Source of the DNA: Candidatus Dormiibacterota bacterium
Lineage (GTDB): Bacteria > Chloroflexota > Dormibacteria > Dormibacterales > Dormibacteraceae
Reading direction: 5' to 3'
Assembly (NCBI GenBank): GCA_036570165.1
Contig: DATCPI010000116.1
Span: forward strand, 28,107 to 92,106
DNA: 64,000 nt
Shown in pieces: positions 32,152 through 45,199 of the stretch. Position 1 is the first letter of the stretch, and each line of letters starts with the position of its first letter. Position numbers and translations under genes: made by a program. Under the pieces are notes generated by a model. The model was given only the letters and a program-made list of their open reading frames with translations, searched no databases and was not told the DNA's origin.

Positions 32152-35100
32152 GTGATCGAGTTGGCGAGCGATCAAGAGGCGTCCCTGCCTACGTCCACAA
32201 CCTCTTCCGCCCTGGACGCGGTAGCCGAATGGGCCAATGAGGGCCGGCGGCTGCATCGGTGGGCGCGACTCCTTCCCGTCATCACCGGGATCGCCGCCAC
32301 GCTCATCCTGGCTGCGGTCGGCTACCGGCTGTGGAGGGCGGACGTCGGCGCCGGTGAGCTGGTGGCCTGGGGTGGGGCTCTCTTCGTCCTGGCCGGCCTG
32401 GCTTACCTCAGCCAGCGCGTGCTCGACCGCAGCCTGGCGCGGCAGGCCCAACGACAGGCCTCGCTCCTCCAGGCGATCAGCGACATCGGCGAAGGGCTGG
32501 TGATCACGGAGAACGGCCGCTACATTGCCTCCAACGCCGCGTACCAAACCCTGACCGGGTACGACGCCGCCGAGCTCAGGGCCTTTGGATCTCTGATCGA
32601 GCTGGCCCCCGAAGAGGAGCGCCAGGGGCTGACCGACCAGCTTTCCAGCCGTTTGGTCGGCGGCGACGTGCCGCACCGCTACGAATCGGCGCTGATGACG
32701 AAGGATGGGCGCCACATCCAGGTCGAGACCGCCGTCCGCCGCCTGGCCGCCGAAGGCAAGCACCGGCTGCTCGCCCTCGTTCACGACATCAGCGAGCGGC
32801 ACCGCATGGAGGAGGCCGAGCGCGAGAGCGAGACGAGGTTCCGCACCCTGTTCGAGCAGGCTCAGGCGGGCATGGCCTTCGCGGCGCTGGACGGCCACAT
32901 CACCACCGTGAACCCCGCTTTTTGCCAGTTGGTGGGCTTCAGCCACGCCGAGCTTTCAAATCTGTCGCTGATCGACATCACCTACCCCGAAGAGGTCCCC
33001 GCCCTTCAGCAGGCGATGTCCCGCATGCTGGCGGGCCAGGAAGAGGGGACACGCATTGAGATGCGATACACCCGAAAGGACGGCGAGCCGGTTTGGGTAG
33101 ACGTCACGACCCGACTCGTGCGTGGCCCAGACAACAATCCGCTGTACCTCCAAACCGTCGCGGTCGACATTCGCGACCGCAAGCGAGCCGAGGTTCTGCA
33201 AGCGGCCCGTTTCGCGGTCACCCAGGCGCTGGTCACCTCGCCGGGCTGGGAAAAGGCGGCGCCGGGCGTCCTCGAAGGGCTGTGCATGACGCTCGATTGG
33301 GAGCTTGCCGAGTACTGGGAGGTCGATGCGGAACGCGAAGCGATGCACTTTGTGACCTCATGGAAAAGGCCGGGGCGGGACACTTCGAGCTACGAGGCCA
33401 CCGCGTCTCAGACGAGCTACAAGCGCGGCGAGGGATTGGCGGGGCGAGTATGGGAAACGGGTACTCCCGTTTCGATACAGGACGTCGCCTCCGACGATTC
33501 GCCACGCTCGGCCGCCGCCGTCGCCGCGGGCCTAAAGGGAATCGTGGGATTCCCGGTGCGGAGCGGGCGCCGGGTCGTTGGGATGATCGCGCTTCACACG
33601 TGGGCGCCGCGCGACCTCGACGAGGGCTTGCTAGCGGTCATGAACGACGTCGGTTCGCAGATCGGCGAGTTCGTCGAGCGCAAGCGCGCCGAGGTGGCGC
33701 TGCAGGAGAGCGAAAAGCGGATGCGCTCAGTCCTCGACAACGTCTCGGACGGGATCGCCACGATCGAGCAGACAGGCATCATCGAGTCCGCCAACCCGGC
33801 TGTCGTCAAGCTGTTCGGCTATTCAGAGCAGGACCTGGTCGGTCAGCAGGCGGACGTGCTGATCGCGACCACGCATCGCAGCGCGTTCATCAACTACCTG
33901 GAACGGCGGCTCAAGCTCGACATCCCGGTCAGCGGCGCGCACGAGACGATGGGCAAGCGCAAGAACGGAAGCCTTTTTCCTCTCGAGTTCGTCGTCAGCT
34001 CGATGCAGATCGGCTCGCGTCATGTGTTCATCGCCACGCTCCGCGACATCTCGGAGCGCAAGGCGCACACCGATGCGCTCGAGTACCAGGCTCTGCACGA
34101 CGCGCTGACCGGGCTGCCAAATCGCAGCCTTTTCGGCGACCGCCTCCGCCAGGCGCTGTTGGCGGCGCGCCGCAACCAGAAGATGTTCGGCGTTCTGCTG
34201 CTCGACCTCGATCGCTTCAAGGACATCAACGACGCGCTCGGTCACGACCGCGGTGACAGCCTGCTGCAAGAGGTGACCGCGCGCCTGCGCGGCGTCCTGC
34301 GTGCGACCGACACGATTGCCCGGCTCGGCGGTGACGAGTTCGCGGTGCTCACCACCGACGCCAAGCATCCCGATGACGTGGTGTCCACCGCACGCAAAAT
34401 CCTGGCCGCCCTCGAAGGGCCTTTCGCGATCGCCGACCAGATGGTCGAGACAGGCGCCTCGATCGGCATCGCGATGTACCCCGTCCACGGGGACGATCCG
34501 AGCACGCTGCTGCGCCGCGCGGACGTTGCGATGTACGTTGCCAAGCGCTCGGGCGGCGGGTTCGCCGTGTACGCGCCGGAGCAGGAGGCGCAGACGCTGC
34601 GCCGTTCCGGGCTGGCCGGCGAGCTGCGGCGGTCGATCCCCCAGGGTGAGCTCGTCCTGCATTACCAACCTCAGGTCACCCTCGCCACTGGCGCGATTCA
34701 TTCGGTCGAGGCGCTGGTGCGCTGGAACCATCCCCGAGAAGGGCTCATGCCGCCCGACCGCTTCATCCCCATGGCCGAGGAGACCGGCATCATCCATCCG
34801 CTCACCGCGTGGGTCCTGGATTCAGCGCTCGCGCAGCTGGTCAAGTGGCTCGAGGACGGGCTGGACGTTTCCGTATCGCTCAACGTGTCGCCTCGCAACA
34901 TCGAAGACCACTCGTTGGAGGAGATGGTCGCGAGGGCCCTCGGCACGTTCAAAGTCGAGCCGCAGCGGCTCACGCTCGAGATCACAGAGGGTGTGGCGAT
35001 GGCCGCGGCCGCGGCCAAGGCGCTGCACAGGTTGAACGAGATGGGTGTGCGGCTGGCCCTCGACGATTTCGGGACCGGCTACTCCTCGCTGCTGTACCTC

Positions 35101-35382
35101 ATGCGCCTACCGGTTAACGAGATCAAGATCGACCGCTCATTCGTGTCGGCACTCGCCTCCGACCCTGACTCGGGCGCGATAGTGCGCTCGGCCGTCGGGC
35201 TGGGTCATAACCTCGGCCTGCGAGTGGTCGCGGAAGGTCTGCAGGACCGCGCCGCGGAAGCCATCCTGATCGAAGCCGGCTGTGATGCGGCGCAGGGATT
35301 CCTGGTGGGGCGGCCGACCGCCGAGCGCGACATGACGGACCTCCTGCTTGCTCACTCAGGCCTCGCCAAACAGCTGGACTGA
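32152..35382 (+). CDS. Membrane-anchored PAS-PAS-GAF-PAS-GGDEF-EAL c-di-GMP signalling protein
   Basis: Two N-terminal TM segments and repeated PAS-like blocks (VITENGRY..., ...TVNPAFCQLVGFSHAEL, ...ESANPAVVKLFGYSEQDL). I-site RATD sits 5 aa before an intact RLGGDEFAV. Intact EAL (VEALVRW), DDFGTGYSSL and EIKIDRSF. Confidence 0.9.
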   Translation: MIELASDQEASLPTSTTSSALDAVAEWANEGRRLHRWARLLPVITGIAATLILAAVGYRLWRADVGAGELVAWGGALFVLAGLAYLSQRVLDRSLARQAQRQASLLQAISDIGEGLVITENGRYIASNAAYQTLTGYDAAELRAFGSLIELAPEEERQGLTDQLSSRLVGGDVPHRYESALMTKDGRHIQVETAVRRLAAEGKHRLLALVHDISERHRMEEAERESETRFRTLFEQAQAGMAFAALDGHITTVNPAFCQLVGFSHAELSNLSLIDITYPEEVPALQQAMSRMLAGQEEGTRIEMRYTRKDGEPVWVDVTTRLVRGPDNNPLYLQTVAVDIRDRKRAEVLQAARFAVTQALVTSPGWEKAAPGVLEGLCMTLDWELAEYWEVDAEREAMHFVTSWKRPGRDTSSYEATASQTSYKRGEGLAGRVWETGTPVSIQDVASDDSPRSAAAVAAGLKGIVGFPVRSGRRVVGMIALHTWAPRDLDEGLLAVMNDVGSQIGEFVERKRAEVALQESEKRMRSVLDNVSDGIATIEQTGIIESANPAVVKLFGYSEQDLVGQQADVLIATTHRSAFINYLERRLKLDIPVSGAHETMGKRKNGSLFPLEFVVSSMQIGSRHVFIATLRDISERKAHTDALEYQALHDALTGLPNRSLFGDRLRQALLAARRNQKMFGVLLLDLDRFKDINDALGHDRGDSLLQEVTARLRGVLRATDTIARLGGDEFAVLTTDAKHPDDVVSTARKILAALEGPFAIADQMVETGASIGIAMYPVHGDDPSTLLRRADVAMYVAKRSGGGFAVYAPEQEAQTLRRSGLAGELRRSIPQGELVLHYQPQVTLATGAIHSVEALVRWNHPREGLMPPDRFIPMAEETGIIHPLTAWVLDSALAQLVKWLEDGLDVSVSLNVSPRNIEDHSLEEMVARALGTFKVEPQRLTLEITEGVAMAAAAAKALHRLNEMGVRLALDDFGTGYSSLLYLMRLPVNEIKIDRSFVSALASDPDSGAIVRSAVGLGHNLGLRVVAEGLQDRAAEAILIEAGCDAAQGFLVGRPTAERDMTDLLLAHSGLAKQLD

Positions 35383-35544
35383 GGTATGAGGGAAAACCCG
35401 GATGGTTTTCCCTCATCGCGCGTGTGGCTTCGCCGCAGGCGCTGCTCCCATTCCGGTATATCGATGGGACTTGATTAAGAGTCTGAAGCCGGCATCGCAT
35501 GGAGACAAAGAGACAAAGTCGCGACCGGGCGGAGCCCGGTCGCC
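35383..35544 (+). repeat. Hairpin-rich ~160-nt intergenic repeat, copy A (candidate structured RNA; strand tentative)
   Basis: About 92% identical (hand alignment) to 36417-36577. Hairpins: ATGAGGGAAAACC/GGTTTTCCCTCAT (35386-35416), GCGCGTGTGG/CCGCAGGCGC (35418-35442), TCCCAT/ATGGGA, and GCGACCGGG/CCCGGTCGC (35521-35543). Confidence 0.7.
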
Positions 35545-35556
35545 CCGGCCACGCTT

Positions 35557-36393
35557 GTGAAAGCGATTGTGCTCGGGGCCGCAGGGCAGCTTGGGTCGGC
35601 GCTTGCACGGCTGATCGGCGAGGACTCCGGTGTGACGCATGCGGAGGTGTCTGTCACCGATCAGCATGCTCTTGATGCTCTCCTGAACAGCCGGAGTCCG
35701 GAGCTGGTGTTCAACTGCGCCGCATACAACGCGGTGGACCGGGCAGAGGCGGAGCGGGCCCTGGCCTATGCGGTCAACTCGGAAGGCCCGGCCAACGTCG
35801 CCATGTCGTGCGCGCGCCATGGGGTCCGGCTCGTCCATTTCTCGACCAACTTCGTGTTCGACGGTGCCCTCGAGCGCCCTTACGTCGAGACCGACATTCC
35901 GGCGCCGCTCAGCGTCTACGGATCATCCAAGCTCGAGGGGGAGCAGAGGGTGCTGGATCTTCTGCCGGAGGCGCTCGTGATCAGGACCTCCGCAGTCTTT
36001 GGTGACACGGGCTCGGCAGTCAAGGGCGGGAGCTTCCCCGAACGGATCGTGTCGCGTGCCCGGCTCGGTCTGCCGCTGCGAGTTGTGGCCGACCAGAGGG
36101 TCAACCCGACTTACGCGGGCGACCTGGCCCCGGCCGCGATCAAGCTCGCGGAAAGCCGCCTGGAAGGTGTCGTCCATGTCGTCGCCGCGGGTTGCGCGGG
36201 CTGGGACGAATTCGCCCGTGCGGCGCTGTCGGAGCTGGGCGTCACTGCGAAGGTGGAAGCCATTGTGTCCGCCGAGCTGGCCACGCCTGCGGCAAGACCG
36301 CTCAACGGATGCCTTGAGTCCAGTCGGGCGGCCCCGCTGAGGCCCTGGCGGGAGGGGCTCCACGAATGGGCCGTGAGGCGTCGTGGAGCATAA
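35557..36393 (+). CDS. rmlD: dTDP-4-dehydrorhamnose reductase
   Basis: MKAIVLGAAGQLGSAL, FNCAAYNAVDRAE and STNFVFDG...PLSVYGSSKLEGE (YxxxK). GTG start. Confidence 0.8.
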   Translation: MKAIVLGAAGQLGSALARLIGEDSGVTHAEVSVTDQHALDALLNSRSPELVFNCAAYNAVDRAEAERALAYAVNSEGPANVAMSCARHGVRLVHFSTNFVFDGALERPYVETDIPAPLSVYGSSKLEGEQRVLDLLPEALVIRTSAVFGDTGSAVKGGSFPERIVSRARLGLPLRVVADQRVNPTYAGDLAPAAIKLAESRLEGVVHVVAAGCAGWDEFARAALSELGVTAKVEAIVSAELATPAARPLNGCLESSRAAPLRPWREGLHEWAVRRRGA

Positions 36394-36416
36394 AAAAGGC
36401 TCGGGCCGGGCGATTA

Positions 36417-36577
36417 GGTATGAGGGAACACCCGGATGGTTTTCCCTCATCGCGCGTGCGGCTTTGCCGCAGGCGCTGCTCCCATTCCGGTATACGGATG
36501 GGACTTGATAAGAGTCTGAAGCTGGCGTCGCGTGGAGACCAAAAAACAAAGTCGCGACCGGGCGAAGCCCGGTCGCC
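36417..36577 (+). repeat. Hairpin-rich ~160-nt intergenic repeat, copy B
   Basis: Direct-orientation copy of 35383-35544 with 13 differences including a 1-nt indel. It is flanked by a perfect 28-nt duplication (36388-36415 and 36594-36621). Confidence 0.7.
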
Positions 36578-36887
36578 ACGAGCAGGATCCGAGGCATAAA
36601 AAAGGCTCGGGCCGGGCGATTTCTCGACACCGGCTCCGAGCTTGGCTGCGGGGGGTGAGGATCTAACTGATGATGATGACCCCGAATTAACTTTTCCTCT
36701 CTGCTCCCATCCCTTTGACGGTGCGCGCGCGCAGACGCGCACGTTAAAAGTGTAGGAGTGAAGAGGCGCGGAATCCGCGAGCAATTTGTTGGATCTGTGC
36801 ACTTTTTCAACGACGAAACGACTACGTCAGTCGGGGATTACCAAGCCTGAGCAGTTGTGCAGGCGACCGCCAGATGCTTAGGATGCG

Positions 36888-37268
36888 TTGGTTTCAGCAA
36901 ACGAATTGCACACTTTGATCACATCGAACGATTTAGCAACTCGCCTTGGCGTGAGCCGGGCCACCGTTCTTCGCGCCGTGGCGAGGGGGCTCCTCAAGCC
37001 CGCCTCTGTCACCCCGGGAGGCCACCGCCGATTCCTGCCTGAGGACATCGAGGACCTAGCCGGCCGGCTTGAGGCGCGGCCCGCGGAGCTGGTCAGCTCG
37101 AAAGAGGCGGCGCGGCTCCTCGGGGTCAGCCAGCAGACGGTGAACCGGGCCGCCCGGGAAGGGCGGCTGCATCCAGCCTCGGTCACGCCGGGCGGGCATC
37201 GACGCTTTTCCCGCTCGGCGATCTATGACTCGCTGCGCGAAGTCGATCACAACGGGACGAGAGCCTGA
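36888..37268 (+). CDS. Tandem-duplicated BldC/excisionase-type (MerR-like HTH_17) DNA-binding protein
   Basis: There are two homologous halves: LATRLGVSRATVLRAVARGLLKPASVTPGGHRRFLPEDIEDL and AARLLGVSQQTVNRAAREGRLHPASVTPGGHRRFSRSAIYDSL. Start is uncertain (in-frame TTG at 36888, 36906 and 36915). Confidence 0.7.
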   Translation: MVSANELHTLITSNDLATRLGVSRATVLRAVARGLLKPASVTPGGHRRFLPEDIEDLAGRLEARPAELVSSKEAARLLGVSQQTVNRAAREGRLHPASVTPGGHRRFSRSAIYDSLREVDHNGTRA

Positions 37269-39694
37269 TGGCGGGGGACGAATCGGGTTCGCATTCGGAG
37301 CCGCGGGCTGACCGCGGTCAGCTCGTCTGGAGCATCCTTCTGAACCTCATCCTGATCGCCGCGGTCGTCCTTGGGGTGATACCCATCGTCGCCATCGCTC
37401 GTGGCTTTGTCGAGCTGGTGACCGAGTCGAAGACTCGCAGCGGGGCGGACTGGGTCGGATACGGGTTCGCGTTCACCGGCCTGTTTCTCGGTGCGGTCTT
37501 CTTCGCATATGCGATCAAGTACTACCTCAGCACGGCCATCGTGCTGCTGACGACGCTGGCGTTCGGGGGTCCTCGCAACGGCAACGGCAACGGCAACGGT
37601 CACGGCTCGCCGAACCTCACCGGCCACAGCCGCATCAACGCCAATGGCAACGGCAACGGCTACCACATCGATCTCGGCTATCACCCGTTCGTCTCAATCC
37701 ACGTCGCCGCATACAACGAAAAGCGCGTCATCGAGCGCCTTCTCCAAGCACTCGACCAGCTCGAGTACCCCGAGTACGAGGTCGTCGTGGTCGATGACTC
37801 GAACGATGAGTCGGTGCAGATACTGCAGGCATGGCGGAACAGGCCACGCTTCAAGATCCTCCACCGCGCCACCCGCAAGGGGTACAAGGGGGGCGCGCTC
37901 CAGGAGGCGCTGAAGGTCACCGACCCCAGGGCCGAATACATCGTCGTCTTCGACGCCGACTCGGTCCCATTCCCGGACTCGATCGATCGTCTTCTGCCTC
38001 ATTTCTATCGAGTCAGCGAGGGCACGGCCAACCGGATGCTGGAGTCGAACTTCGGTCGCGCTGAGCCTCCGTCGGAACCTGGGCAGATCAAGCGCAGGAC
38101 AGAGGTCGCGGCCGTGCAGAGCTACCAGTGGCACGTCCTCAACAAGTCGGAGAGCTGGCTGACCGAAGCCGTGAGGGCCGAATACTCCGGCAGCTACATG
38201 GTCGAGCGCCCATTCCAGGACGCCGTCGGCGCTCTGAAGATGATCGCGGGCACCGCCTACATGATTCGCGCGGACGTCCTGCGCCAGGTCGGCTGGGGCA
38301 CGAGCATCACGGAGGACTGGGAGCTCACGCTCAAGCTCTACGCGCGCGGCTACAAGGTCGCCTACACGCCCTGGGCTGAGACGCCCGCCGAATGCGTCAG
38401 CACGTTCGCTCGGCTCGCCCGTCAGCGAATGCGGTGGGCCGAAGGCCACACCTACAACGTGCGCAAGTGGTTCCTGCCGATCATGCGGTCACCCTTTTTG
38501 ACCCCGCTGGAGAAGGGAGAGTTCCTCTTCGACTCCACCTATTACCTGCAGGCCGGGCTCTTCGTGGTCGGGACAGTGAGCTGGCTCATGTCGGAGACCG
38601 TGTTTCACACCCACGTGCCCGGCTGGACAGCGGTGCTCGGATGGTCGCTGCTCTTCTCCAACATCTTCGCGCTGCCGCTGATGAACCTGGGAGGGCTGAT
38701 CCTGGAAGAAGCCCCGAGGCGCGACATGCAGGGAGTATTTGGCGCGTTGGTGCTGTCCTTTGCGCTGGTTCCATTTCAGGGCTGGGCGGCTTTCAAGGGC
38801 CTCGTCAGCAAGGACGAAGGGCCGTGGTTCCGAACCCCAAAGACGGGTCGCGTCACAGACGAGGTCCACCACCTTCGCCGGCTCCAGCTCTTGCGGCGGT
38901 GGCTGTTGGGCCGGCGGGCTCGGCGACTGGAACTGACACCGATTGCCCGCACGGCGACGCCGGCGGTGGCACGCACCGTAATTCGGTCGCGGAATCGGTG
39001 GATCGGCTGGGGAGTCGCCCTCGCCATGCTCGCGTCCTTCGGCGGTTTGGCCTGGCTGGCTTCGCGTGCCCCTGTCGTCAGCGCCGCAGGCAACCCCCTG
39101 TACCTGCACGGCGGCGGCGTGGCGCCATGCACCGCCAGCACGCTCGACCAGGCGATCGGGATCCGGCCATTGGCGTCTGCGTGCTCGATCGGTGTGGGGA
39201 TCACGACGACCTGGGGATTCACGAACCTGCCTGCGCAGACCGTGGCCGCGGGGATCTGGAGCTTCACCATGTACTGGAGCGGGGGAACCGGGAACGCCAG
39301 CAACACGGTGGCGGTCAGCGCCGGCGTGTCCCTGACCGCCAGCTGCGCGACGTTCGTCGCGACGATCCCGAATCCGGGCACCACGTGGACGACGGACTTT
39401 GGATCTCTAGCCACGAACACCTCGAGCCCGTTCACCGTGAGCACAAGCGCGAGCCAGCTGCCGCTGGTGATTCCGCCAGGTGGGTCCCTTTGTCTGTCCG
39501 TCACTCTGACGCACAACACCGGCGGACCCGTGTTGATGCTCTATGACGGGGCGGCCGGCGTCGCGGACACGCGGGCGGTCCCGCCGAGCATCATCGTGCC
39601 CGAGTCAGTCCTGGGCCTGGTGGGGTTTGCCCTCCTGATACCTCTATTCACACGCCGCAAGCGCGTCCTCGAGCTCTTTAGGTTTCGGACATGA
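37268..39694 (+). CDS. Processive-type family 2 glycosyltransferase (synthase) with an extra C-terminal TM anchor, a ~190-aa extracytoplasmic domain and a PEP-CTERM-like tail
   Basis: The GT2 core has VSIHVAAYNE, VVVVDDSNDES, VVFDADSVP, ITEDWELT and the QxxRW motif RQRMRWAEG, plus multiple TM segments. The module at 38999-39694 is described in the findings. The ATG overlaps the upstream TGA (TGATG). Confidence 0.85.
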   Translation: MAGDESGSHSEPRADRGQLVWSILLNLILIAAVVLGVIPIVAIARGFVELVTESKTRSGADWVGYGFAFTGLFLGAVFFAYAIKYYLSTAIVLLTTLAFGGPRNGNGNGNGHGSPNLTGHSRINANGNGNGYHIDLGYHPFVSIHVAAYNEKRVIERLLQALDQLEYPEYEVVVVDDSNDESVQILQAWRNRPRFKILHRATRKGYKGGALQEALKVTDPRAEYIVVFDADSVPFPDSIDRLLPHFYRVSEGTANRMLESNFGRAEPPSEPGQIKRRTEVAAVQSYQWHVLNKSESWLTEAVRAEYSGSYMVERPFQDAVGALKMIAGTAYMIRADVLRQVGWGTSITEDWELTLKLYARGYKVAYTPWAETPAECVSTFARLARQRMRWAEGHTYNVRKWFLPIMRSPFLTPLEKGEFLFDSTYYLQAGLFVVGTVSWLMSETVFHTHVPGWTAVLGWSLLFSNIFALPLMNLGGLILEEAPRRDMQGVFGALVLSFALVPFQGWAAFKGLVSKDEGPWFRTPKTGRVTDEVHHLRRLQLLRRWLLGRRARRLELTPIARTATPAVARTVIRSRNRWIGWGVALAMLASFGGLAWLASRAPVVSAAGNPLYLHGGGVAPCTASTLDQAIGIRPLASACSIGVGITTTWGFTNLPAQTVAAGIWSFTMYWSGGTGNASNTVAVSAGVSLTASCATFVATIPNPGTTWTTDFGSLATNTSSPFTVSTSASQLPLVIPPGGSLCLSVTLTHNTGGPVLMLYDGAAGVADTRAVPPSIIVPESVLGLVGFALLIPLFTRRKRVLELFRFRT

Positions 39695-40275
39695 GAACTC
39701 GAGACCGCGACAACCTCAACCTGACGCTGCTTGCGCTGCTGTGTGCGCTGCTCATGCTGCTGCCGTTGGTGACGACTTTCGACGACCTCCTCACTGCGTG
39801 GGCGATGGGGCTCGGTGCGAACAACCCATTGCAAACGATCGTCCCGGTCGAGGCGCGGATGGTGGTGGGTCTCCTCGGCCTGGCGGGAATACATGCGGCG
39901 GCGTCCGGAAGTCACCTCGTGGTCTGGGATGGGAGCGGCGCGATGCACACTCTGTACATCTCGTGGAACTGCATCGGTTGGCAGAGCCTGATCCTGCTTG
40001 GTGTAAGTTTGCTGTCCGGCCTGCGCGGGCGACATCCACTCGAAGCTCGCGTCCAGGTCATCGTCATCGGCGTTGCCGGCACGATGCTGCTCAACCTCTT
40101 GCGCGTCGCTGCGGTCGCGGGCATCGCCGCTACGGTCGGCGTCACGCCCGCCGTCCTCTTTCACGATTACGGAGGCACGATCCTTCTCATCTCATTCCTC
40201 TTTGTGTTCTGGATGTTCGTTCAACGGTGGATTCTCGGTTCGGTGCCGTCAGACGAGCTTGAGGTGGCCGCGTGA
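39691..40275 (+). CDS. Minimal exosortase/archaeosortase-family protein (194 aa)
   Basis: Polytopic protein with ordered motifs: ISWNCIGWQSL (Cys94), LLNLLRVAAV (Arg138) and VLFHDYGGTIL (His158). The spacing resembles the Cys/Arg/His core of exosortases. ATGA overlap with the GT2 gene. Confidence 0.7.
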   Translation: MRTRDRDNLNLTLLALLCALLMLLPLVTTFDDLLTAWAMGLGANNPLQTIVPVEARMVVGLLGLAGIHAAASGSHLVVWDGSGAMHTLYISWNCIGWQSLILLGVSLLSGLRGRHPLEARVQVIVIGVAGTMLLNLLRVAAVAGIAATVGVTPAVLFHDYGGTILLISFLFVFWMFVQRWILGSVPSDELEVAA

Positions 40276-42500
40276 ACCGATGGCTTCGACTCGTCCTTCA
40301 GACAGCCCTTGGCCTGGTGCTGCTGTGGTTGTGGCTGCGCACCGTTTCGCTCACCGAGGTGATGAGCCATGCGCGAGTCCACAGCTGGGCCCCGGTGCTC
40401 CTGATGATCGCCCTCTTCCTACTGACGAGCCTCATCAGGGCCCGCCGCTGGCTGATTCTGCTGCGCCCGCTCGCCCCGGTCGGGATGGTCAGGGCGTTTG
40501 CCATGAACGCGGCCGGCGGACTCCTCAACTACGTGCTGCCGATTCGCTCGGGAGACGCCGCGCGCGCGTGGTGGCTGTGGCGGCGCCATCGCGTGCCGGC
40601 GGGATCGGCCCTGGCCACCATCGTGGTCGACAAGGCCTGCGACCTCGCCGCGGTGGCATTCGTCCTGGCGCTGCTCGAGGTGATCGCCTTGACCGGGATC
40701 GTGAGCGCTCCGCGCGGGCTCCTGGGCGCTGCCGCCCTGGCGGTCGCGCTGCTTGTCGCCGTGCTGGGAACGGCGCTGCTCGGCCCGCGGCTGGCGCGGT
40801 CATGGCTGGCCAAAAGGTTGCTGCCATCACGATTTGCGACGGCGATCGCGGGTCAAGCCTTTGCGTTCCGGGCCGGGGCTCGAGGTTTGTGGACTCCGGC
40901 GCTGGCAAGCCGGCTTGCCCTCCTGACGGTGCTGGCGTTGGTGATCGACGCCTTCAACTTCACGCTGCTGTTCGCCGCGGTGGGGATCTCGGTTCCGCCG
41001 CTGAAGGCGATGGCCGCGTATCCAGCGCTGCTGCTGAGCTTCGCCGTTCCGGCCGGGCCTGGATACGTCGGCAACCTGGAGGTGGCGGGGTCGCTGGTCC
41101 TGGGTGGCGGCCTGGGGTTGGCCCCGGCGGTTGCCGCCGGCGCCATCGTCCTGTACCACGCGCTCACAGCGGGATACGCCCTCGTCCTTGGACTCCTGGG
41201 CTTCCTTCTCGTCGGGGGCCGGCGCGCTGTTCGCGCCGGGGGGCCGCGCCGCGTAGCGGTCTTCCATTGCGGATTCACGTATTCGGGCGGCGGCGAGCGG
41301 ATCGTCATCGAAGAGGTGTTGGGACTACGAAGACGTGGTTACGACGTGGAGTGCTACGCGCCGACCGTCGATGAGTCGCGGTGCTACCCGGATTTGATTG
41401 GCGAGGCGCGCGTCCGAACTTTTCTGCCGCAGCTGCCGCGCTGGTTCCCGTTGCGGGAGGCAGTTCAGATGGCGGCTACTTCTTTGCTGATGCCTCTTTA
41501 TGCGTGGCGCTTTCGCGGAGTCGACGCCATCGTCGGGTGCAACCAGCCGAGCGCATGGATCGCCTGGTGGGCGGCGAGGTTGATGGACGTGCCCTACGTG
41601 GTCTATCTGAACCAGCCGAATCGCCTGGTGTATCCGCGCAACATCGACCGCGAGACGGGATGGGTGGCCAACGCCGACTACAGGCTGCTGGCGGCGATCG
41701 TGCTGCGCGCGACGCGATTCGTTGCGTGGGCCGACCGGCGCTCCGTGCAGGAGGCGGACCAGCTGCTCGTCAACGGCGATTACATCGGCGACATCATCCG
41801 GCGCACTTATCGTCGCGAAGCGGCTGATTGCCCGGCGGGTTGCCATGTTGCCGCGTCGGGCTTTCCGCTGCCCGTCGATGCGCGCTTTGCAGGTGGTTTG
41901 ACCATCAACGGTTATCCGATCCGGCGGCCGTACGTGCTGCTGACCAATCGTCACTACCCGCAGAAGCGATTCGACCTCGCGATCAGGGCGATCGCCGAGG
42001 TGCGCAAGCTCCACCCGCGAGTACAGCTCGTGATACCGGGTCCCTTCACTACACACACGGAGTCGCTCCAGGCACTGGTCGCGGAGCTGGGGCTGGCGGA
42101 GGCAGTGCTCTTCCTCGGCCCGATTGCAGAAGACGAGCTGCAGAAGCTGTACGAGGGAGCCGCCGTCTACGTATATCCGGCACCTGAGGAAGATTTCGGC
42201 ATGGGGGTCATCGAGTCGATGGCCAAGGGCGTGCCGGTGGTGGCGTGGAACCAGGCGGGGCCGACGGTCACTGTCGGGCCTGGCACGGGGCACCTTGCGG
42301 AGCCGCTCGTGGTGAGCGATTACGCGGCGGGCATCTCGCGGCTGCTTGACGATCCGTCGGAGAACCAGGCGACGGGAACACGTGCGTTCGAATGGGCGCG
42401 GCGGTTTGACTGGGAACGACACATCGACACGATGGAAAAGGTCGTCCTCGAGGTGGCACGCTCCCACGAACGATTCGCGGCGGAGGCTGCCACCGCTTGA
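40272..42500 (+). CDS. Flippase-like (LPG-synthase-TM / UPF0104) membrane domain fused to a GT4 (GT-B) glycosyltransferase
   Basis: The N-terminal ~320 aa are polytopic and carry LIRARRWLILLRPL...AGGLLNYVLPIRSGDAARAWWL. The C-terminus has a GT4 E-x7-E region (EEDFGMGVIESMAKGVPVVA). GTGA overlap. Confidence 0.8.
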   Translation: MNRWLRLVLQTALGLVLLWLWLRTVSLTEVMSHARVHSWAPVLLMIALFLLTSLIRARRWLILLRPLAPVGMVRAFAMNAAGGLLNYVLPIRSGDAARAWWLWRRHRVPAGSALATIVVDKACDLAAVAFVLALLEVIALTGIVSAPRGLLGAAALAVALLVAVLGTALLGPRLARSWLAKRLLPSRFATAIAGQAFAFRAGARGLWTPALASRLALLTVLALVIDAFNFTLLFAAVGISVPPLKAMAAYPALLLSFAVPAGPGYVGNLEVAGSLVLGGGLGLAPAVAAGAIVLYHALTAGYALVLGLLGFLLVGGRRAVRAGGPRRVAVFHCGFTYSGGGERIVIEEVLGLRRRGYDVECYAPTVDESRCYPDLIGEARVRTFLPQLPRWFPLREAVQMAATSLLMPLYAWRFRGVDAIVGCNQPSAWIAWWAARLMDVPYVVYLNQPNRLVYPRNIDRETGWVANADYRLLAAIVLRATRFVAWADRRSVQEADQLLVNGDYIGDIIRRTYRREAADCPAGCHVAASGFPLPVDARFAGGLTINGYPIRRPYVLLTNRHYPQKRFDLAIRAIAEVRKLHPRVQLVIPGPFTTHTESLQALVAELGLAEAVLFLGPIAEDELQKLYEGAAVYVYPAPEEDFGMGVIESMAKGVPVVAWNQAGPTVTVGPGTGHLAEPLVVSDYAAGISRLLDDPSENQATGTRAFEWARRFDWERHIDTMEKVVLEVARSHERFAAEAATA

Positions 42501-44125
42501 GGCTGCTGCCCAGGATCCTTCCCACCGAAGAGGAAGAGGAGCAGCGACTCGAGCAGCCAGATCCCGAGCCCCTGGGAGACACGAACGGTCCGTCGCTTCA
42601 TTGGGGCGGGCCGGCAATCGTGGCGGCGGGCGCCGCGATCCCGCGTCTCATTTATCTGTTCGCGTTCACGGATCCACAGAACGCAGGCCACGGGTTCACG
42701 GATGCCTATCACCACTGGCAAATTGCCTACTTGACCAAAGAGATCGGGCTCACCCACGGGCTACGCCTTTGGGACTTGCGGGGATGGGAGTACTACTGGG
42801 GGCTGCTGCACCCGGCTCTCACGGACCTTCTCTTTTTCGCCACCGGGTCACCGGACATCGTGCTGGCCCGGCTCCTGAGTCTTGTCTTCGGCTCCCTCAC
42901 CGTGGTGCTGATTTTTCTTCTCTGCCATCGCTACTGGGGCACAACCGTTGCGGTGGCCGCCAGCGCGTTTGCCGCGCTGGCACCGGCGAGCGTCTTCAAC
43001 GATGTCGCCGGCATGGCCGAACCGATTGGAGTCGCCCTGGTTCTCTTTGGAATCTGGTTGACGCCGAGGCATGGTTTCTGGGCAGGCGTGTCCTGGGCGT
43101 GCGCGGCGATGGCGAGGGTAGAGGCGTGGCTCTTCGGAGCGGGTCTGATCGTTGCCTGGCTGTTGGGAAGACGTCGGGGTCAGCCGCGGTGGTCGTTGGC
43201 GGCCGGCTGGGTGCTTGTGCTGGCTCTCTATGCGAAGTTTCTTTACGACCGGACCGGAAATCCCATCTATCCCGTCTACTGGAGCTTCCAGTTCGTCGCA
43301 TTTGGAGGGTTCGACTCGGGAGCGGTGGTTCCATCGGGCCAGGAGATGCTGGGGTTGCCGCTGGCTGGAGCCGTTGCGGTCTCGGCTGCCGGACTCGCTT
43401 GGTCCTTGTGGAAGCGACCACCTTCGTATTTGCTTCTCGTCTACGGATTCGGTTATTCGGCGTACAGCTTCGCCACGTTCCTGAAGGTCGATGACTGGAA
43501 AGAACGCCGCTTTGAGTTTCCAATGGACTTTGCCGCCATCCTCGTCGCAGTTCTGCTGTTCAAAGTCCTTCCGGAGCGGCGTCGGGGACTCGAGCCTCTA
43601 GGGTGGGCGATCGCGATTGCGGGTCTCCTGGTCGTCCAGATCTTTTGGATCCCGATCCAGAGTGCGTATTCCGCCACCGAACCTGGGTTCCGGGATCAGG
43701 TGCGCCTGGGACGTGCGATCGGGGTGGTCTACAACCGTCCGGAGTACAAGGGCGGGGGACTGACCGTGCCGGGCGACGATCCAACTCTGGTCTACGTATT
43801 GGTGCGTAACGAAAAGGTTCCGGGCGCTCGAATCTCGAGTGAGTTCTACGATCCTTTCTATTACCTGCCAGCCGGCTACCGGTATGCCGACCATAAGGAG
43901 AGCGTCGGAGCGTTGCTGAAATGCTGGCTGGCAAGCACGCAAACCCGGCTGCTCTTGGTGACGCCGCCCAGCGCGTTCAATCACTCGGTGGCGGATTACA
44001 ACGCCTTCATCGCCGACCATTCCCAGTGGTTTGTAGATACCGGGGCTCAATTGGACCCAGGGTGGTCACTCGTGGCTGTTCAGGTGCCAGCCCCTGGCCC
44101 GCACGAGTGCCCAGGGTCAGGGTAG
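42497..44125 (+). CDS. Polytopic membrane protein, GT-C (ArnT/PMT-like) putative glycosyltransferase
   Basis: About 11 hydrophobic segments, an acidic/aromatic first loop (FTDAYHHWQIAY) and a soluble C-terminal domain. Family assignment is by architecture only. TTGA overlap. Confidence 0.5.
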   Translation: MRLLPRILPTEEEEEQRLEQPDPEPLGDTNGPSLHWGGPAIVAAGAAIPRLIYLFAFTDPQNAGHGFTDAYHHWQIAYLTKEIGLTHGLRLWDLRGWEYYWGLLHPALTDLLFFATGSPDIVLARLLSLVFGSLTVVLIFLLCHRYWGTTVAVAASAFAALAPASVFNDVAGMAEPIGVALVLFGIWLTPRHGFWAGVSWACAAMARVEAWLFGAGLIVAWLLGRRRGQPRWSLAAGWVLVLALYAKFLYDRTGNPIYPVYWSFQFVAFGGFDSGAVVPSGQEMLGLPLAGAVAVSAAGLAWSLWKRPPSYLLLVYGFGYSAYSFATFLKVDDWKERRFEFPMDFAAILVAVLLFKVLPERRRGLEPLGWAIAIAGLLVVQIFWIPIQSAYSATEPGFRDQVRLGRAIGVVYNRPEYKGGGLTVPGDDPTLVYVLVRNEKVPGARISSEFYDPFYYLPAGYRYADHKESVGALLKCWLASTQTRLLLVTPPSAFNHSVADYNAFIADHSQWFVDTGAQLDPGWSLVAVQVPAPGPHECPGSG

Positions 44126-44140
44126 TGCGCACGGCGACTT

Positions 44141-45199
44141 CTAGTTGACTGTCGCCGCCCAGGCGATGAGGTCATTGAGCCCTCGATCGAAAGAGACCTG
44201 TGGCTCCCAGTCCAGGACCGCCTTCGCCTTGGTGATGTCGCTTACGTAATAGGTCTGGTCGCCCTCGCGCCAGTCGGTGAACGTGTACTGCGGCTTGCGG
44301 TTCGTCAGCTCGCCGATCTGGGCGATGACCTCGAGGAGGTTTCGCTGGTTCTCCGGGCCACCGCCGACGTTGAAGATCTCGCCACGCGTCTCGTCGATCT
44401 TCTCGATGACGGTGGCGTACAGCGCGCATAGATCCCGCGCATCGAGCAGGTCACGCACCTGGGTGCCATCGCCATAGATCGTGAGCGGCCGGTCATTGAG
44501 GATCGAATGGGCGAAATGCGCGACCCACCCCTGGTCCTCGGTCCCGTACTGGTGCGTGCCGTAGATGCAGCTCTGCCGGAGGACGACCGTGTTCATATGA
44601 AAGCAGCGGGCGTAGTCCCTCACGTACTGGTCCGCCGCGCCCTTGCTGCAGCCGTACGGACTGTGGAAGTCGATGGGCTGCGTTTCTTTACAGGCAACGT
44701 TGTTCTTGTCGAGCTTTCCGTACACCTTGTTCGTCGATGCGAAGAGAAACGGAGCTTCGGGGTTGTGCAGCCGCACCGCCTCCAGCAGATTCAGGGTGCC
44801 TCTCGCGTTGACGTCGAAGTCCGTGACAGGATCGACCAGCGAGGTCGTTACCGCGACCTGGCCGGCCAGGTGCAGGATCGCGTCCTGGTTTTTGACGTGC
44901 TCGGCCACGGCGCCGGCGGTCCTCACGTCTTCTTTGATGAAAGTCGTCCGAGTTGGATGCTCGGTGATCAACCACTTGAGGTTTCGCTCTGTCCCCGGCC
45001 GGCTGAGATTGTCGAGCAGGGTCACGTGCCATCCGTCGGCGATCAGATGCAGCGCAGCGTTGACCCCGAGAAAGCCCGCTCCGCCGGTGATCAGGATGCG
45101 GCGGCCGGCGTTTCGTGCGGAGGCGCGAGCGGTGCGTACTGCAACGCGGGGGAGCGTTCTTGGCTCTGCCATCAGCGCACTCGGATCCATCAGGGGCAC
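44141..45199 (-). CDS. SDR-family NAD-dependent epimerase (CDP-paratose/tyvelose 2-epimerase-like)
   Basis: ILITGGAGFLGVN, YGCSKGAADQY and TEDQGWVAHF...YGDGTQVRDLLDARDL. The start may be internal. Confidence 0.8.
   Translation of the reverse strand: MPLMDPSALMAEPRTLPRVAVRTARASARNAGRRILITGGAGFLGVNAALHLIADGWHVTLLDNLSRPGTERNLKWLITEHPTRTTFIKEDVRTAGAVAEHVKNQDAILHLAGQVAVTTSLVDPVTDFDVNARGTLNLLEAVRLHNPEAPFLFASTNKVYGKLDKNNVACKETQPIDFHSPYGCSKGAADQYVRDYARCFHMNTVVLRQSCIYGTHQYGTEDQGWVAHFAHSILNDRPLTIYGDGTQVRDLLDARDLCALYATVIEKIDETRGEIFNVGGGPENQRNLLEVIAQIGELTNRKPQYTFTDWREGDQTYYVSDITKAKAVLDWEPQVSFDRGLNDLIAWAATVN

What the first reader, a model, noticed from the sequence alone, without database searches (positions are those of the whole stretch)
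36888..44125. Five-gene translationally coupled envelope-glycan operon built around a mini-exosortase whose apparent substrate is the synthase itself
Five + strand ORFs are chained by start/stop overlaps: TGATG at 37266-37270, ATGA at 39691-39694, GTGA at 40272-40275 and TTGA at 42497-42500.

The genes in order are:
1. a tandem BldC-type HTH protein
2. an 808-aa processive-type GT2 (QxxRW = RQRMRWAEG)
3. a 194-aa exosortase/archaeosortase-core protein
4. a flippase-like (UPF0104) + GT4 fusion
5. a GT-C-like polytopic protein

The flanks carry rmlD, three SDR sugar epimerases and a GGDEF-EAL protein.

Exosortase homologues next to GT2 genes are known (the XrtG type of Firmicutes). As far as I recall, no sorting-signal substrate is recognised for those. 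Here the only PEP-CTERM-like tail in the window sits on the GT2 synthase. I do not recognise this combination (regulator, self-tagged synthase, minimal sortase, flippase/GT4, GT-C) as a described system.
Basis: partly seen in the sequence, partly recalled or inferred. Interest (0 to 1): 0.85.

Follow-up and report, generated by a model that had tools for sequence, protein, structure and literature searches.

The report
Glycan synthase tagged for its own sortase
A soil bacterium's sugar-polymer synthase ends in a protein-sorting signal, the next gene encodes a miniature sortase-like protease that most likely cuts it, and this synthase–sortase pair, found in both bacteria and archaea and sometimes fused into one protein, is not described in the databases and papers I could search.

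Summary
Five + strand genes (36888-44125) are chained by start/stop overlaps, and those overlaps are conserved in relatives (GT2/sortase: 4-nt overlap in 36 of 37 loci). The window comes from Candidatus Dormibacterota.

The 194-aa protein passes the generic exosortase/archaeosortase signature (33 bits, cutoff 23). It falls far below every named subtype (XrtG, XrtX, XrtY, ArtC and others). It keeps an invariant Cys94/Arg138/His158.

The 808-aa BcsA/PgaC-like GT2 carries an extra TM helix, an extracytoplasmic beta-domain and a tripartite tail (PxI-V-V-P-E, TM helix, RRKR). That tail is present on the adjacent GT2 in every locus where the GT2 C-terminus could be read.

Evidence that the synthase is the sortase's substrate:
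- Natural single-chain fusions exist: GT2-domain-tail-sortase.
- Bathyarchaeota carry sortase-domain-tail fusions next to a tagged GT2.
- The same tail sits on unrelated cargo next to distant homologues (5 of 5 sampled).
- The two-gene core stands alone in one subgroup.

Cleavage itself is not shown, and a structure-based docking test was inconclusive.

Verdict: a new, unnamed variant of dedicated exosortase systems, spanning both domains. Interest is moderate to high.

The parts
36888..37268 (+). Gene 1: 126-aa regulator with two tandem HTH_17 (excisionase/MerR-like) domains. BldC family is the best NCBIfam hit but scores below cutoff.
   Evidence: HTH_17 83 bits in 2 stretches; HTH_BldC 67.6 against a cutoff of 77. 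Found upstream of the GT2 in about 21 loci.
37268..39694 (+). Gene 2: 808-aa membrane-integrated processive-type GT2 synthase with a C-terminal add-on (TM helix, extracytoplasmic beta-domain, sorting signal).
   Evidence: Glyco_tranf_2_3 / Glycos_transf_2 / Glyco_trans_2_3; best NCBIfam hits are PgaC and CelA, both below cutoff. Invariant DDS176-178, DAD229-231, TED348-350, QRMRW386-390 and WFRTPKTG520-527. Foldseek top hits are BcsA and hyaluronan synthase.
37685..38587 (+). GT2 catalytic domain (residues about 140-440).
   Evidence: Pfam stretches 140-393 and 278-440.
39002..39058 (+). Extra TM helix (residues 579-597) that places the following domain outside the membrane. It follows a strongly basic cytoplasmic loop (18 K/R in residues 509-578).
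   Evidence: hydropathy and positive-inside counts; helix 577-600.
39059..39589 (+). Extracytoplasmic all-beta Ser/Thr/Gly-rich domain (residues 598-774) with four invariant Cys. This is the presumed cargo domain.
   Evidence: strands 611-771, pLDDT 65-91. C621, C639, C693 and C742 invariant; only 3 K/R in the domain.
39584..39691 (+). Tripartite C-terminal sorting signal. P773-x-x-I-V777-P778-E779 (nt 39596-39604 encode VPE), hydrophobic helix 780-793, basic end 794-808 (TRRKRVLELFRFRT).
   Evidence: conserved in all GT2s adjacent to the sortase. P773, V777, P778 and E779 are invariant in A1. The P of VPE is one of only two invariant module columns among 27 diverse sequences.
39691..40275 (+). 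Gene 3: 194-aa minimal exosortase/archaeosortase-family protein. Putative catalytic Cys94 (nt 39970-39972), Arg138 (40102-40104), His158 (40162-40164).
   Evidence: TIGR04178 33 bits, cutoff 23. WNC94xGWQS, N135xxR138 and FH158DYG invariant in 45 sequences; confident helical-bundle model of a homologue.
40272..42500 (+). Gene 4: 742-aa fusion of a flippase-like LPG_synthase_TM/UPF0104 domain (residues 8-306) and a GT4 glycosyltransferase (residues about 339-707).
   Evidence: 81-92% identical in relatives.
42497..44125 (+). Gene 5: 542-aa polytopic membrane protein with a C-terminal soluble domain of about 155 aa. Tentatively GT-C-like.
   Evidence: PMT_2 17.8 against 26.1 and STT3 17.4 against 24.5, both below cutoff; about 9-10 TM helices; no PDB homologue; bimodal identity among relatives.
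35557..36393 (+). rmlD (dTDP-4-dehydrorhamnose reductase), an upstream flank conserved in most relatives.
   Evidence: TIGR01214 242 bits, cutoff 224.
32152..35382 (+). PAS-GAF-GGDEF-EAL c-di-GMP turnover protein, a conserved upstream neighbour.
   Evidence: 70-99% identical in about 17 loci.
44141..45199 (-). Convergent SDR NDP-sugar dehydratase/epimerase-family gene, a conserved downstream neighbour.

Best explanation
The locus encodes a synthase-dependent envelope or exopolysaccharide pathway of a Candidatus Dormibacterota bacterium.

Its processive GT2 synthase (BcsA/PgaC/HAS-like) has a C-terminal extension: one extra TM helix, an extracytoplasmic disulfide-containing beta-domain, and a tripartite sorting signal. 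The signal is P-x-I-V-V-P-E abutting a hydrophobic helix, followed by an Arg/Lys cluster on the cytoplasmic side.

The translationally coupled next gene encodes a minimal, deeply membrane-embedded exosortase/archaeosortase-family cysteine protease or transpeptidase (Cys94, Arg138, His158). It is dedicated one-to-one to this signal.

Inferred mechanism: the sortase recognises the VPE motif at the outer membrane face, cleaves off the terminal helix through a thioacyl intermediate, and resolves that intermediate onto a nucleophile. By analogy with archaeosortase A the nucleophile would be a membrane lipid. Alternatively it could be water or the glycan. The synthase stays in the membrane through its other helices, but its outer domain becomes re-anchored or freed at its C-terminus.

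The Flip/GT4 fusion and the polytopic gene 5 are accessories of this subgroup. Most plausibly they form a lipid-linked-sugar pathway in three steps: cytoplasmic GT4, then a flippase-like domain, then an extracytoplasmic transferase. This pathway would decorate the polymer or the Ser/Thr-rich domain.

Shown here: gene content, conservation, the signal's architecture and topology, catalytic-residue conservation, fusions, and cross-domain distribution.

Inferred, not shown: cleavage, the fate of the new C-terminus, the sugar polymer made, and the roles of genes 1, 4 and 5.
For: Enzyme:
- TIGR04178 is above cutoff.
- Cys/Arg/His motifs are invariant over 45 sequences down to 39% identity. This is the triad proposed for the superfamily (bioRxiv 10.1101/2023.06.07.544157), and Cys/Arg are essential in ArtA (PMC9263693).

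Signal:
- It meets the published criteria of position, at least 3 invariant motif residues abutting a TM helix, and a basic cluster.
- The positive-inside rule puts the domain outside and the tail end inside.
- The P of VPE is one of only two invariant module columns across 27 diverse sequences.

Linkage:
- A tagged GT2 is adjacent to the sortase in all loci where both ends are readable, with a 4-nt overlap in 36 of 37.
- The pair stands alone between unrelated genes in L033.
- Single-chain GT2-domain-tail-sortase fusions P0407 and P0431 exist, the latter on two independent contigs.
- Bathyarchaeota locus L053 has a tagged GT2, two sortase-domain-tail fusions and a free mini-sortase.
- Distant mini-sortases in L045, L054, L055, L056 and L057 each neighbour a protein ending in [VI][VIP]PE + TM + basic. 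One of these is another GT2.

Synthase: D,D,D,Q(R)xRW and FxVTxK-like motifs are invariant, and the fold matches BcsA and HAS.
Against: - There is no direct evidence of cleavage or attachment.
- A polytopic synthase does not need a sorting signal to reach the membrane, so the biological purpose is unclear.
- AlphaFold2 on a natural fusion modelled the sortase domain confidently but left the tail at pLDDT below 50, so no docking of VPE to Cys could be seen.
- The beta-domain bodies of the bacterial and archaeal versions are not detectably homologous (hhalign E 0.043, probability 1%). What is shared is limited to the terminal strands and the signal.
- In some archaeal fusions the Pro of the motif is Ser or Asp.
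- There is no classical N-terminal signal peptide (Haft criterion 6). Export of the domain relies on a preceding TM helix.
- Whole genomes could not be scanned for further tagged proteins.
Confidence: 0.72

Rival explanations
1. The C-terminal helix is a permanent structural anchor, like the C-terminal TM anchor of BcsB that packs against BcsA. On this view the sortase homologue is a non-proteolytic partner or assembly factor of the synthase complex, and nothing is cleaved.
For: - The GT2 resembles BcsA, and BcsA-BcsB-type arrangements with an outer domain plus a C-terminal anchor are established for cellulose synthases (general knowledge).
- The synthase is already membrane-integrated.
- The AF2 docking test was inconclusive.
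Against: - The Cys/Arg/His residues are invariant across bacteria and archaea, which is hard to explain for a scaffold.
- The conserved residues of the tail are the extramembrane VPE motif, not the helix face.
- The same motif + TM + basic tail occurs on non-GT2 cargo next to homologous mini-sortases.
Confidence: 0.15
2. The mini-sortase serves other substrates encoded elsewhere in the genome (one-to-many, as for XrtA/PEP-CTERM). On this view the GT2 tail is an unrelated membrane anchor that merely resembles a sorting signal.
For: - Only a 64-kb window and roughly 0.6 Mb of related loci could be scanned.
- Classical exosortases have many substrates (criterion 2).
Against: - Adjacency holds in about 45 loci, with a conserved 4-nt overlap.
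- Enzyme-substrate fusions exist in two orientations.
- No other tailed ORF was found in the window or loci.
- The published definition of dedicated systems fits this case.
Confidence: 0.06
3. This is simply a divergent member of an already named system (XrtG/Firmicu-CTERM, XrtX, XrtY, XrtP or ArtC/PEF-CTERM).
For: - Weak hits to ArtC (30 bits), XrtX (26) and XrtG (17), and of the GT2 to XrtP- and XrtG-associated GT2 models.
- The theme of a mini-exosortase with glycosyltransferases is already curated in NCBIfam.
Against: - All subtype scores are 3- to 10-fold below curated cutoffs, for every clade member tested.
- The tail hits no sorting-domain model even at E <= 10.
- In the XrtG system the substrate is a separate Firmicu-CTERM protein, not the GT2.
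Confidence: 0.05

Closest known systems
XrtG system of Firmicutes (TIGR03110 XrtG + Firmicu-CTERM protein + TIGR03111 GT2 + second GT)
   Same: - A roughly 190-aa minimal exosortase-family protein sits in an operon with a GT2 and another glycosyltransferase.
- It is a dedicated, locally encoded substrate system.
   Different: - The window's protein scores 17 bits against a cutoff of 102.75, and its GT2 scores 31 against 364.
- The XrtG substrate is a separate small protein. Here the signal is on the GT2 synthase itself.
- The signal motif is different and matches no model.
- The clade studied here also occurs in Archaea.
Archaeosortase A / PGF-CTERM (Haloferax volcanii)
   Same: - Same superfamily (TIGR04178).
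- Tripartite signal (motif abutting a TM helix, then basic residues).
- Cys and Arg essential in ArtA. It is the only member with experimentally shown cleavage plus lipid attachment.
   Different: - ArtA is a larger multi-TM enzyme with many substrates, including the S-layer glycoprotein.
- Its motif is PGF, not VPE.
- No link to a glycan synthase as substrate.
Exosortase A/B with PEP-CTERM in EPS loci
   Same: - The Pro-Glu-containing motif abuts a TM helix followed by an Arg cluster.
- The genes lie in polysaccharide biosynthesis loci.
   Different: - One-to-many relationship with secreted, signal-peptide-bearing proteins.
- Full-length 8-TM enzyme.
- XrtA model score 20 against 208 for a clade member.
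BcsA-BcsB cellulose synthase (including natural BcsAB fusions)
   Same: A processive GT2 with a channel-forming TM domain, coupled to an outer domain that ends in a single C-terminal TM anchor (fold match; architecture from general knowledge).
   Different: - No PilZ domain.
- The outer domain is a single small beta-domain with no detectable homology to BcsB.
- The anchor carries a conserved sortase-type motif, and a sortase gene is coupled to it.
Three-component lipid-linked glycosylation systems (GtrA/GtrB/Gtr-type; CsbB/GtcA/YfhO)
   Same: - Genes 4 and 5 combine a cytoplasmic GT, a flippase-like membrane domain and a polytopic outer transferase.
- The last gene is the variable one among close relatives, as in Gtr systems (general knowledge).
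   Different: - The GT is GT4 rather than GT2 and is fused to an MprF-type flippase-like domain rather than a GtrA-type one.
- GT-C membership of gene 5 is not established.

Membership tests
Exosortase/archaeosortase superfamily (TIGR04178) | Score above the curated cutoff of the signature model | tested here: met
   33.0 bits against a cutoff of 23. Relatives score 28-44 bits.
Exosortase/archaeosortase superfamily (TIGR04178) | Conserved Cys, Arg and His (proposed catalytic triad) in polytopic membrane context | tested here: met
   C94, R138 and H158 invariant in 45 sequences. Triad as stated in bioRxiv 10.1101/2023.06.07.544157. Helical membrane model with pLDDT 82-97.
Exosortase/archaeosortase superfamily (TIGR04178) | Endoproteolytic removal of the C-terminal signal of its substrate | not testable with these tools
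   Needs biochemistry. The AF2 docking attempt was inconclusive.
XrtG (TIGR03110) system | Score above the XrtG cutoff, and associated TIGR03111 GT2 above its cutoff | tested here: not met
   17.0 against 102.75, and 31.2 against 363.95.
XrtG (TIGR03110) system | Separate Firmicu-CTERM substrate protein encoded next to XrtG | tested here: not met
   No such gene is present. The tail-bearing protein is the GT2. The tail hits no NCBIfam model. System composition from PMC12854382.
Other named subtypes (ArtC, thaumarchaeosortase, XrtX, XrtY, XrtA, CrtC, ArtE/F, XrtH/V/W) | Score above the subtype cutoff | tested here: not met
   The best score is ArtC at 30.4 against 100. All others are lower relative to their cutoffs.
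Tripartite C-terminal sorting signal (Haft criteria) | 1) Located at the extreme C-terminus | tested here: met
   The motif lies at residues 773-779 of 808.
Tripartite C-terminal sorting signal (Haft criteria) | [quoted passage not shown] | tested here: met
   P773, V777, P778 and E779 invariant. Conserved across clades.
Tripartite C-terminal sorting signal (Haft criteria) | 4) Hydrophobic TM segment and 5) basic cluster at the end | tested here: met
   Hydrophobic helix at residues 780-793, with the hydropathy peak window at 775-793; 6 K/R in the last 15 residues. The same is seen in all relatives.
Tripartite C-terminal sorting signal (Haft criteria) | 6) N-terminal signal peptide on the carrier protein | tested here: not met
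   The carrier is a polytopic synthase. The outer domain is exported by an internal TM helix (579-597), not by a signal peptide.
Tripartite C-terminal sorting signal (Haft criteria) | [quoted passage not shown] | tested here: met
   The two genes are adjacent in about 45 loci, with a 4-nt overlap in 36 of 37. Fusions also exist. Criteria text.
Processive membrane-integrated GT2 synthases (BcsA/PgaC/NodC/HAS type) | D, D, D, Q(Q/R)xRW motifs and TM helices after the catalytic domain | tested here: met
   DDS176-178, DAD229-231, TED348-350 and QRMRW386-390 invariant. Helices 413-513. Foldseek matches to BcsA and HAS at E 1e-8 to 1e-6, though TM-scores are low because the model is poor.
Processive membrane-integrated GT2 synthases (BcsA/PgaC/NodC/HAS type) | Membership of a specific equivalog (PgaC, CelA, NodC) | tested here: not met
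   PgaC 91.6 against 422, CelA 58.8 against 699, NodC 38 against 550. The polymer made is unknown.
BldC family regulators (NF033787) | Score above the subfamily cutoff | tested here: not met
   67.6 against 77. The protein passes the generic HTH_17 and excisionase-domain models.
GT-C glycosyltransferases (PMT_2 / STT3 and similar) | Score above a Pfam GT-C family cutoff, or homology to a solved GT-C | tested here: not met
   PMT_2 17.8 against 26.1 and STT3 17.4 against 24.5. The profile search found no PDB hit. Only the polytopic topology is compatible.

The most novel reading that the evidence does not exclude
A previously unnamed, cross-domain clade of miniature sortases works in strict one-to-one pairs with a VPE-type signal. 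In one branch the cargo is the glycan synthase itself. On this reading the sortase resolves its thioacyl intermediate onto the nascent polysaccharide or its lipid primer, so that polymer and synthase domain become covalently joined. That would be a protein-anchored or protein-primed exopolysaccharide and a new way of tethering a glycan to the cell. The natural enzyme-substrate fusions would then be self-processing single-turnover machines.
Probability: 0.15. Interest if true: 0.9.

Novelty: new variant of a known kind. Interest (0 to 1): 0.64.

Why it matters
What exosortases and archaeosortases attach their substrates to, and whether they act as one-step transpeptidases, is still open. Classical systems are one-to-many and hard to dissect.

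This clade offers minimal, self-contained pairs: a single defined substrate next to, or fused to, a sortase domain of about 190 aa. Such pairs are well suited to heterologous expression, mass spectrometry of the processed C-terminus, and structure determination. No solved structure of this fold was found.

It would also be the first case I can find where a polysaccharide synthase, an enzyme rather than a surface structural protein, is the sortase cargo. That links polymer synthesis and covalent surface anchoring in one complex.

The system is widespread in Dormibacterota, an abundant uncultured soil phylum, so it is relevant to their envelope and desiccation or biofilm biology. It also suggests annotation models that could be added: a new Xrt/Art subtype, its CTERM signal, and the tagged GT2.

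Tried and rejected
1. Stand-alone versions of the C-terminal module (P0142, P0233, P0239) looked like split genes but are assembly artefacts: an N-gap and frameshifted long-read contigs.
2. Homology of the beta-domain body between the Dormibacterota and archaeal or fusion versions is not significant by hhalign. I do not claim a conserved cargo domain.
4. As a substitute I modelled the natural fusion P0417. It gave a confident sortase domain but a disordered tail, so docking is inconclusive.
5. The whole-GT2 model is poor (mean pLDDT 57) because the MSA is shallow. Only the beta-domain and parts of the GT2 core are usable.
6. Foldseek and phmmer against the PDB found nothing for the sortase and nothing for gene 5.
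7. Rfam found nothing across 30-50 kb, and the sigma-70 promoter scan found nothing.
8. The Haft 2012 paper (PMC3256604) is not held.
9. L047, a distant mini-sortase, is flanked by YfhO/PMT-like GT-C genes. I saw no VPE-type tail there, so not every clade member has an identified cargo.
Full report
**1. The observation**

The five + strand ORFs exist exactly as described: 36888-37268, 37268-39694, 39691-40275, 40272-42500 and 42497-44125. The junction strings TGATG, ATGA, GTGA and TTGA are at the stated coordinates. Because the ORF list uses the longest possible start, I tested whether the overlaps are real by looking at relatives. Across related loci the overlap geometry recurs:

| Junction | Loci with the conserved overlap |
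|---|---|
| GT2 / sortase | 4-nt overlap in 36 of 37 |
| sortase / Flip-GT4 | 4-nt overlap in 23 of 27 |
| Flip-GT4 / gene 5 | 4-nt overlap in 17 of 18 |
| HTH / GT2 | 1- or 4-nt overlap in 18 of 21 |

This is far more regular than chance and is the classical geometry of translational coupling. Transcription as one unit is inferred, not shown. The simple promoter and terminator scan gave nothing useful.

**2. What the genes are**

Profile searches gave the following.
- Gene 1 has two HTH_17/excisionase-type domains. BldC is the best NCBIfam hit but scores below its cutoff (67.6 against 77).
- Gene 2 is a GT2 whose best matches are PgaC/IcaA, CelA and NodC, all far below equivalog cutoffs.
  - The D,D,D,Q(R)xRW set and an FxVTxK-like WFRTPKTG are invariant in 47 orthologues.
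  - A low-confidence AlphaFold2 model matches BcsA and hyaluronan synthase best.
- Gene 3 (194 aa) passes the exosortase/archaeosortase signature TIGR04178 (33 bits, cutoff 23). It is 3- to 10-fold below the cutoff of every named subtype: ArtC 30/100, thaumarchaeosortase 27/250, XrtX 26/170, XrtG 17/103.
- Gene 4 is an LPG_synthase_TM (UPF0104, flippase-like) domain fused to a GT4.
- Gene 5 is a polytopic protein with only sub-threshold PMT_2/STT3 hits. A profile of its orthologues finds no PDB homologue. 'GT-C-like' therefore remains a guess based on topology.
- Flanks: a bona fide rmlD, two generic SDR NDP-sugar enzymes and a PAS-GAF-GGDEF-EAL protein.

**3. Origin and conservation**

Homologues of the 194-aa protein are annotated only as 'exosortase/archaeosortase family protein', and they come overwhelmingly from Candidatus Dormibacterota metagenome bins.

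Among 48 genome loci, about 25 keep the order GGDEF-EAL, rmlD, HTH, GT2, sortase, Flip/GT4, gene 5, SDR. A second subgroup (L026-L039; GT2 about 48% and sortase about 58% identical) keeps only GT2 and sortase. In L033 that pair lies between F420/molybdopterin genes and DNA-repair-type genes. The conserved core is therefore two genes. The regulator, Flip/GT4 and gene 5 are accessories of the window's subgroup.

**4. The tail**

The GT2 ends ...AVPPSIIVPE-SVLGLVGFALLIPLF-TRRKRVLELFRFRT.
- In every locus where the C-terminus of the adjacent GT2 can be read, the same tripartite structure is present. This includes the divergent subgroups, with VVPEH in subgroup 2 and FIPER in L043/L044.
- P773, V777, P778 and E779 are invariant among 47 orthologues.
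- In an alignment of 27 diverse sequences that includes fusions at 28% identity, the Pro of VPE is one of only two invariant columns in the whole 239-residue module.
- Hydropathy and charge counts place the 509-578 loop (18 K/R) inside. They place TM 579-597 and then a 177-residue domain with 3 K/R and four invariant Cys outside. The tail helix follows, and its basic end is inside. This is the geometry of PEP-CTERM/PGF-CTERM signals.
- The motif abuts the helix without a spacer, as described for signals cut by deeply membrane-embedded enzymes.
- The tail hits no NCBIfam or Pfam sorting-domain model even at E <= 10.
- It is the only such tail in the window, and across about 0.6 Mb of related loci the only other regex match is one spurious hit in L043.

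**5. Is the synthase the substrate?**

Five independent lines say yes.
- (a) Adjacency with coupled translation holds in about 45 loci. This is the criterion Haft gives for 'dedicated' one-to-one systems.
- (b) The enzyme looks active. WNC94xGWQS, N135xxR138 and FH158DYG are invariant in 45 sequences down to 39% identity. They match the proposed Cys/Arg/His triad and the Cys/Arg residues essential in ArtA.
- (c) Rosetta-stone fusions exist. An exhaustive search of 1.84 billion representatives found only 266 relatives.
  - P0407 (946 aa) and P0431 (1227 aa, full-length on two independent contigs) are single chains: GT2, TM helix, outer domain, FPIEVPEN + TM + basic linker, mini-sortase. Fragments P0417 and P0391 show the same junction.
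  - P0403, P0438, P0443, P0455, P0459 and P0491 have the reverse order: sortase, TM helix, beta-domain, LPG[IM]VV[P/S/D]E + TM + basic. Where the source names an organism (the P0443 and P0491 clusters) it is Bathyarchaeota, and several clusters have multiple members.
- (d) An archaeal counterpart exists. Bathyarchaeota locus L053 encodes a 752-aa GT2 ending IEFPGIMVPEN + TM + KMREKK. Two sortase-domain-tail fusions and a free 197-aa mini-sortase follow it directly.
- (e) The signal travels with the enzyme, not with the GT2. In L045 (Microgenomates), L054, L056 and L057, distant mini-sortases neighbour large proteins with no recognisable Pfam domain. These end in IITPEG, VVVVPEF, LPIPEM and IVIPEN, each followed by a TM helix and basic residues. 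In L055 the neighbour is another GT2 ending VSVPEY + TM + RKKLRRR.

**6. What was not shown**

- Cleavage is inferred.
- My structural test failed to inform. A model of the natural fusion P0417 gave a confident sortase bundle (pLDDT 82-97) but a tail at pLDDT below 50.
- No solved structure resembles the sortase.
- The outer domains of the bacterial and archaeal versions are not significantly similar apart from the last strands (...YD[SG]...) and the signal.
- The carrier has no N-terminal signal peptide (one Haft criterion is not met), because it is a polytopic enzyme.
- One distant member (L047) has no identified cargo.

**7. Mechanism proposed**

The GT2 polymerises and translocates a beta-glycan of unknown composition. 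Its appended outer domain is held at both ends, by TM 579-597 and by the tail helix. The mini-sortase attacks at or next to VPE with Cys94, removes the tail helix, and passes the new C-terminus to an acceptor. The acceptor could be a lipid (as for ArtA substrates), water or the glycan itself. I rate 'the GT2 tail is the sortase substrate' at about 0.7. The nature of the acceptor is open.

Genes 4 and 5 plausibly form a Gtr-like three-part route: cytoplasmic GT4, flippase-like domain, outer transferase. Consistent with that analogy, gene 5 is the variable member. It is 41-48% identical in many loci whose Flip/GT4 is 81-92% identical. L015, for example, has GGDEF-EAL 99%, sortase 91%, Flip/GT4 92% and gene 5 46%. 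The conserved GGDEF-EAL neighbour hints at c-di-GMP control, but the GT2 has no recognisable PilZ domain. This link is speculation.

**8. Comparison with what is known**

- The closest curated system is XrtG.
- NCBIfam also curates XrtP-, XrtY- and XrtG-associated glycosyltransferases, so 'small exosortase in a glycosyltransferase operon' is a known theme.
- Three things are not described in NCBIfam release 20, in Pfam, or in the searchable literature. These are the signal sitting on the synthase itself, the enzyme-substrate fusions, and the spread of this particular clade over Dormibacterota, CPR bacteria and Bathyarchaeota.

I therefore class it as a new variant of a known kind (a dedicated exosortase/archaeosortase system), not as categorically new.

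**9. Verdict**

Interest is 0.64. A specialist would find a sortase-tagged glycan synthase and self-contained sortase-substrate fusions surprising, and useful for the open question of what these enzymes attach proteins to. Against that, the organisms are uncultured and no biochemical step has been shown.

Noticed in passing
window 35382-35547 and 36416-36580 (also 36388-36415 / 36594-36621): A direct repeat of about 166 nt (92% identical) brackets rmlD just upstream of the operon, together with an exact 28-nt repeat. It is strongly structured on both strands (z = -5.0 and -5.6). It contains minus-strand terminator-like hairpins (35543-35521 and 36576-36554) although the flanking genes are on the + strand. 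It has no Rfam match. It occurs only in the closest relatives (L001, L002 twice, part of L006), always in the intergenic space between GGDEF-EAL, rmlD and HTH. Its nature is not resolved; it could be a small mobile or REP-like element, an antisense sRNA, or a recombination scar.
   Followed up: partly
L004 6572-6878, compared with window 35382-36888: The closest relative (GGDEF-EAL 95%, gene 5 80% identical) has no rmlD between GGDEF-EAL and the HTH gene, whereas the window and most other loci do. With the flanking direct repeats in the window, this suggests gain or loss of rmlD by recombination.
   Followed up: no
window 42497-44125 and the equivalent gene in L002-L050: Gene 5 (GT-C-like) falls into two identity classes against the window, 41-48% and 62-80%. 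The neighbouring Flip/GT4 meanwhile stays at 81-92% and the 4-nt overlap is kept. L015, for example, has GGDEF-EAL 99%, sortase 91%, Flip/GT4 92% and gene 5 46%. This looks like cassette-type replacement, reminiscent of serotype-specific Gtr transferases.
   Followed up: partly
L004, L005, L009, L015, L027, L028, L035, L040 (record titles): Contigs carrying this operon at 80-99% protein identity to Dormibacterota loci are labelled Nitrosotalea, Nitrosopolaris, Eisenbacteria, Acidoferrum or Verrucomicrobiia in their MAG records. This is probably mis-binning rather than horizontal transfer.
   Followed up: no
window 37574-37663 (GT2 residues about 103-132); also P0407, P0431 and the L055 GT2 N-terminus: An Asn-Gly repeat linker (NGNGNGNG...) sits between the N-terminal TM helices and the GT2 catalytic domain. 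It recurs in distantly related tagged GT2s from other lineages. Its function is unknown.
   Followed up: no
L053 4704-7858: One Bathyarchaeota locus encodes three mini-sortase domains in a row: two fused to their own beta-domain + tail, and one free. They follow a tagged GT2, giving three signals and three enzymes. In one fusion the motif Pro is replaced by Asp (VVDE).
   Followed up: partly
L047 9902-18694: A distant mini-sortase (39% identical) is flanked by three large YfhO/PMT-like polytopic proteins, and I saw no VPE-type tail in the neighbourhood. It is a possible exception to the one-to-one cargo rule.
   Followed up: no
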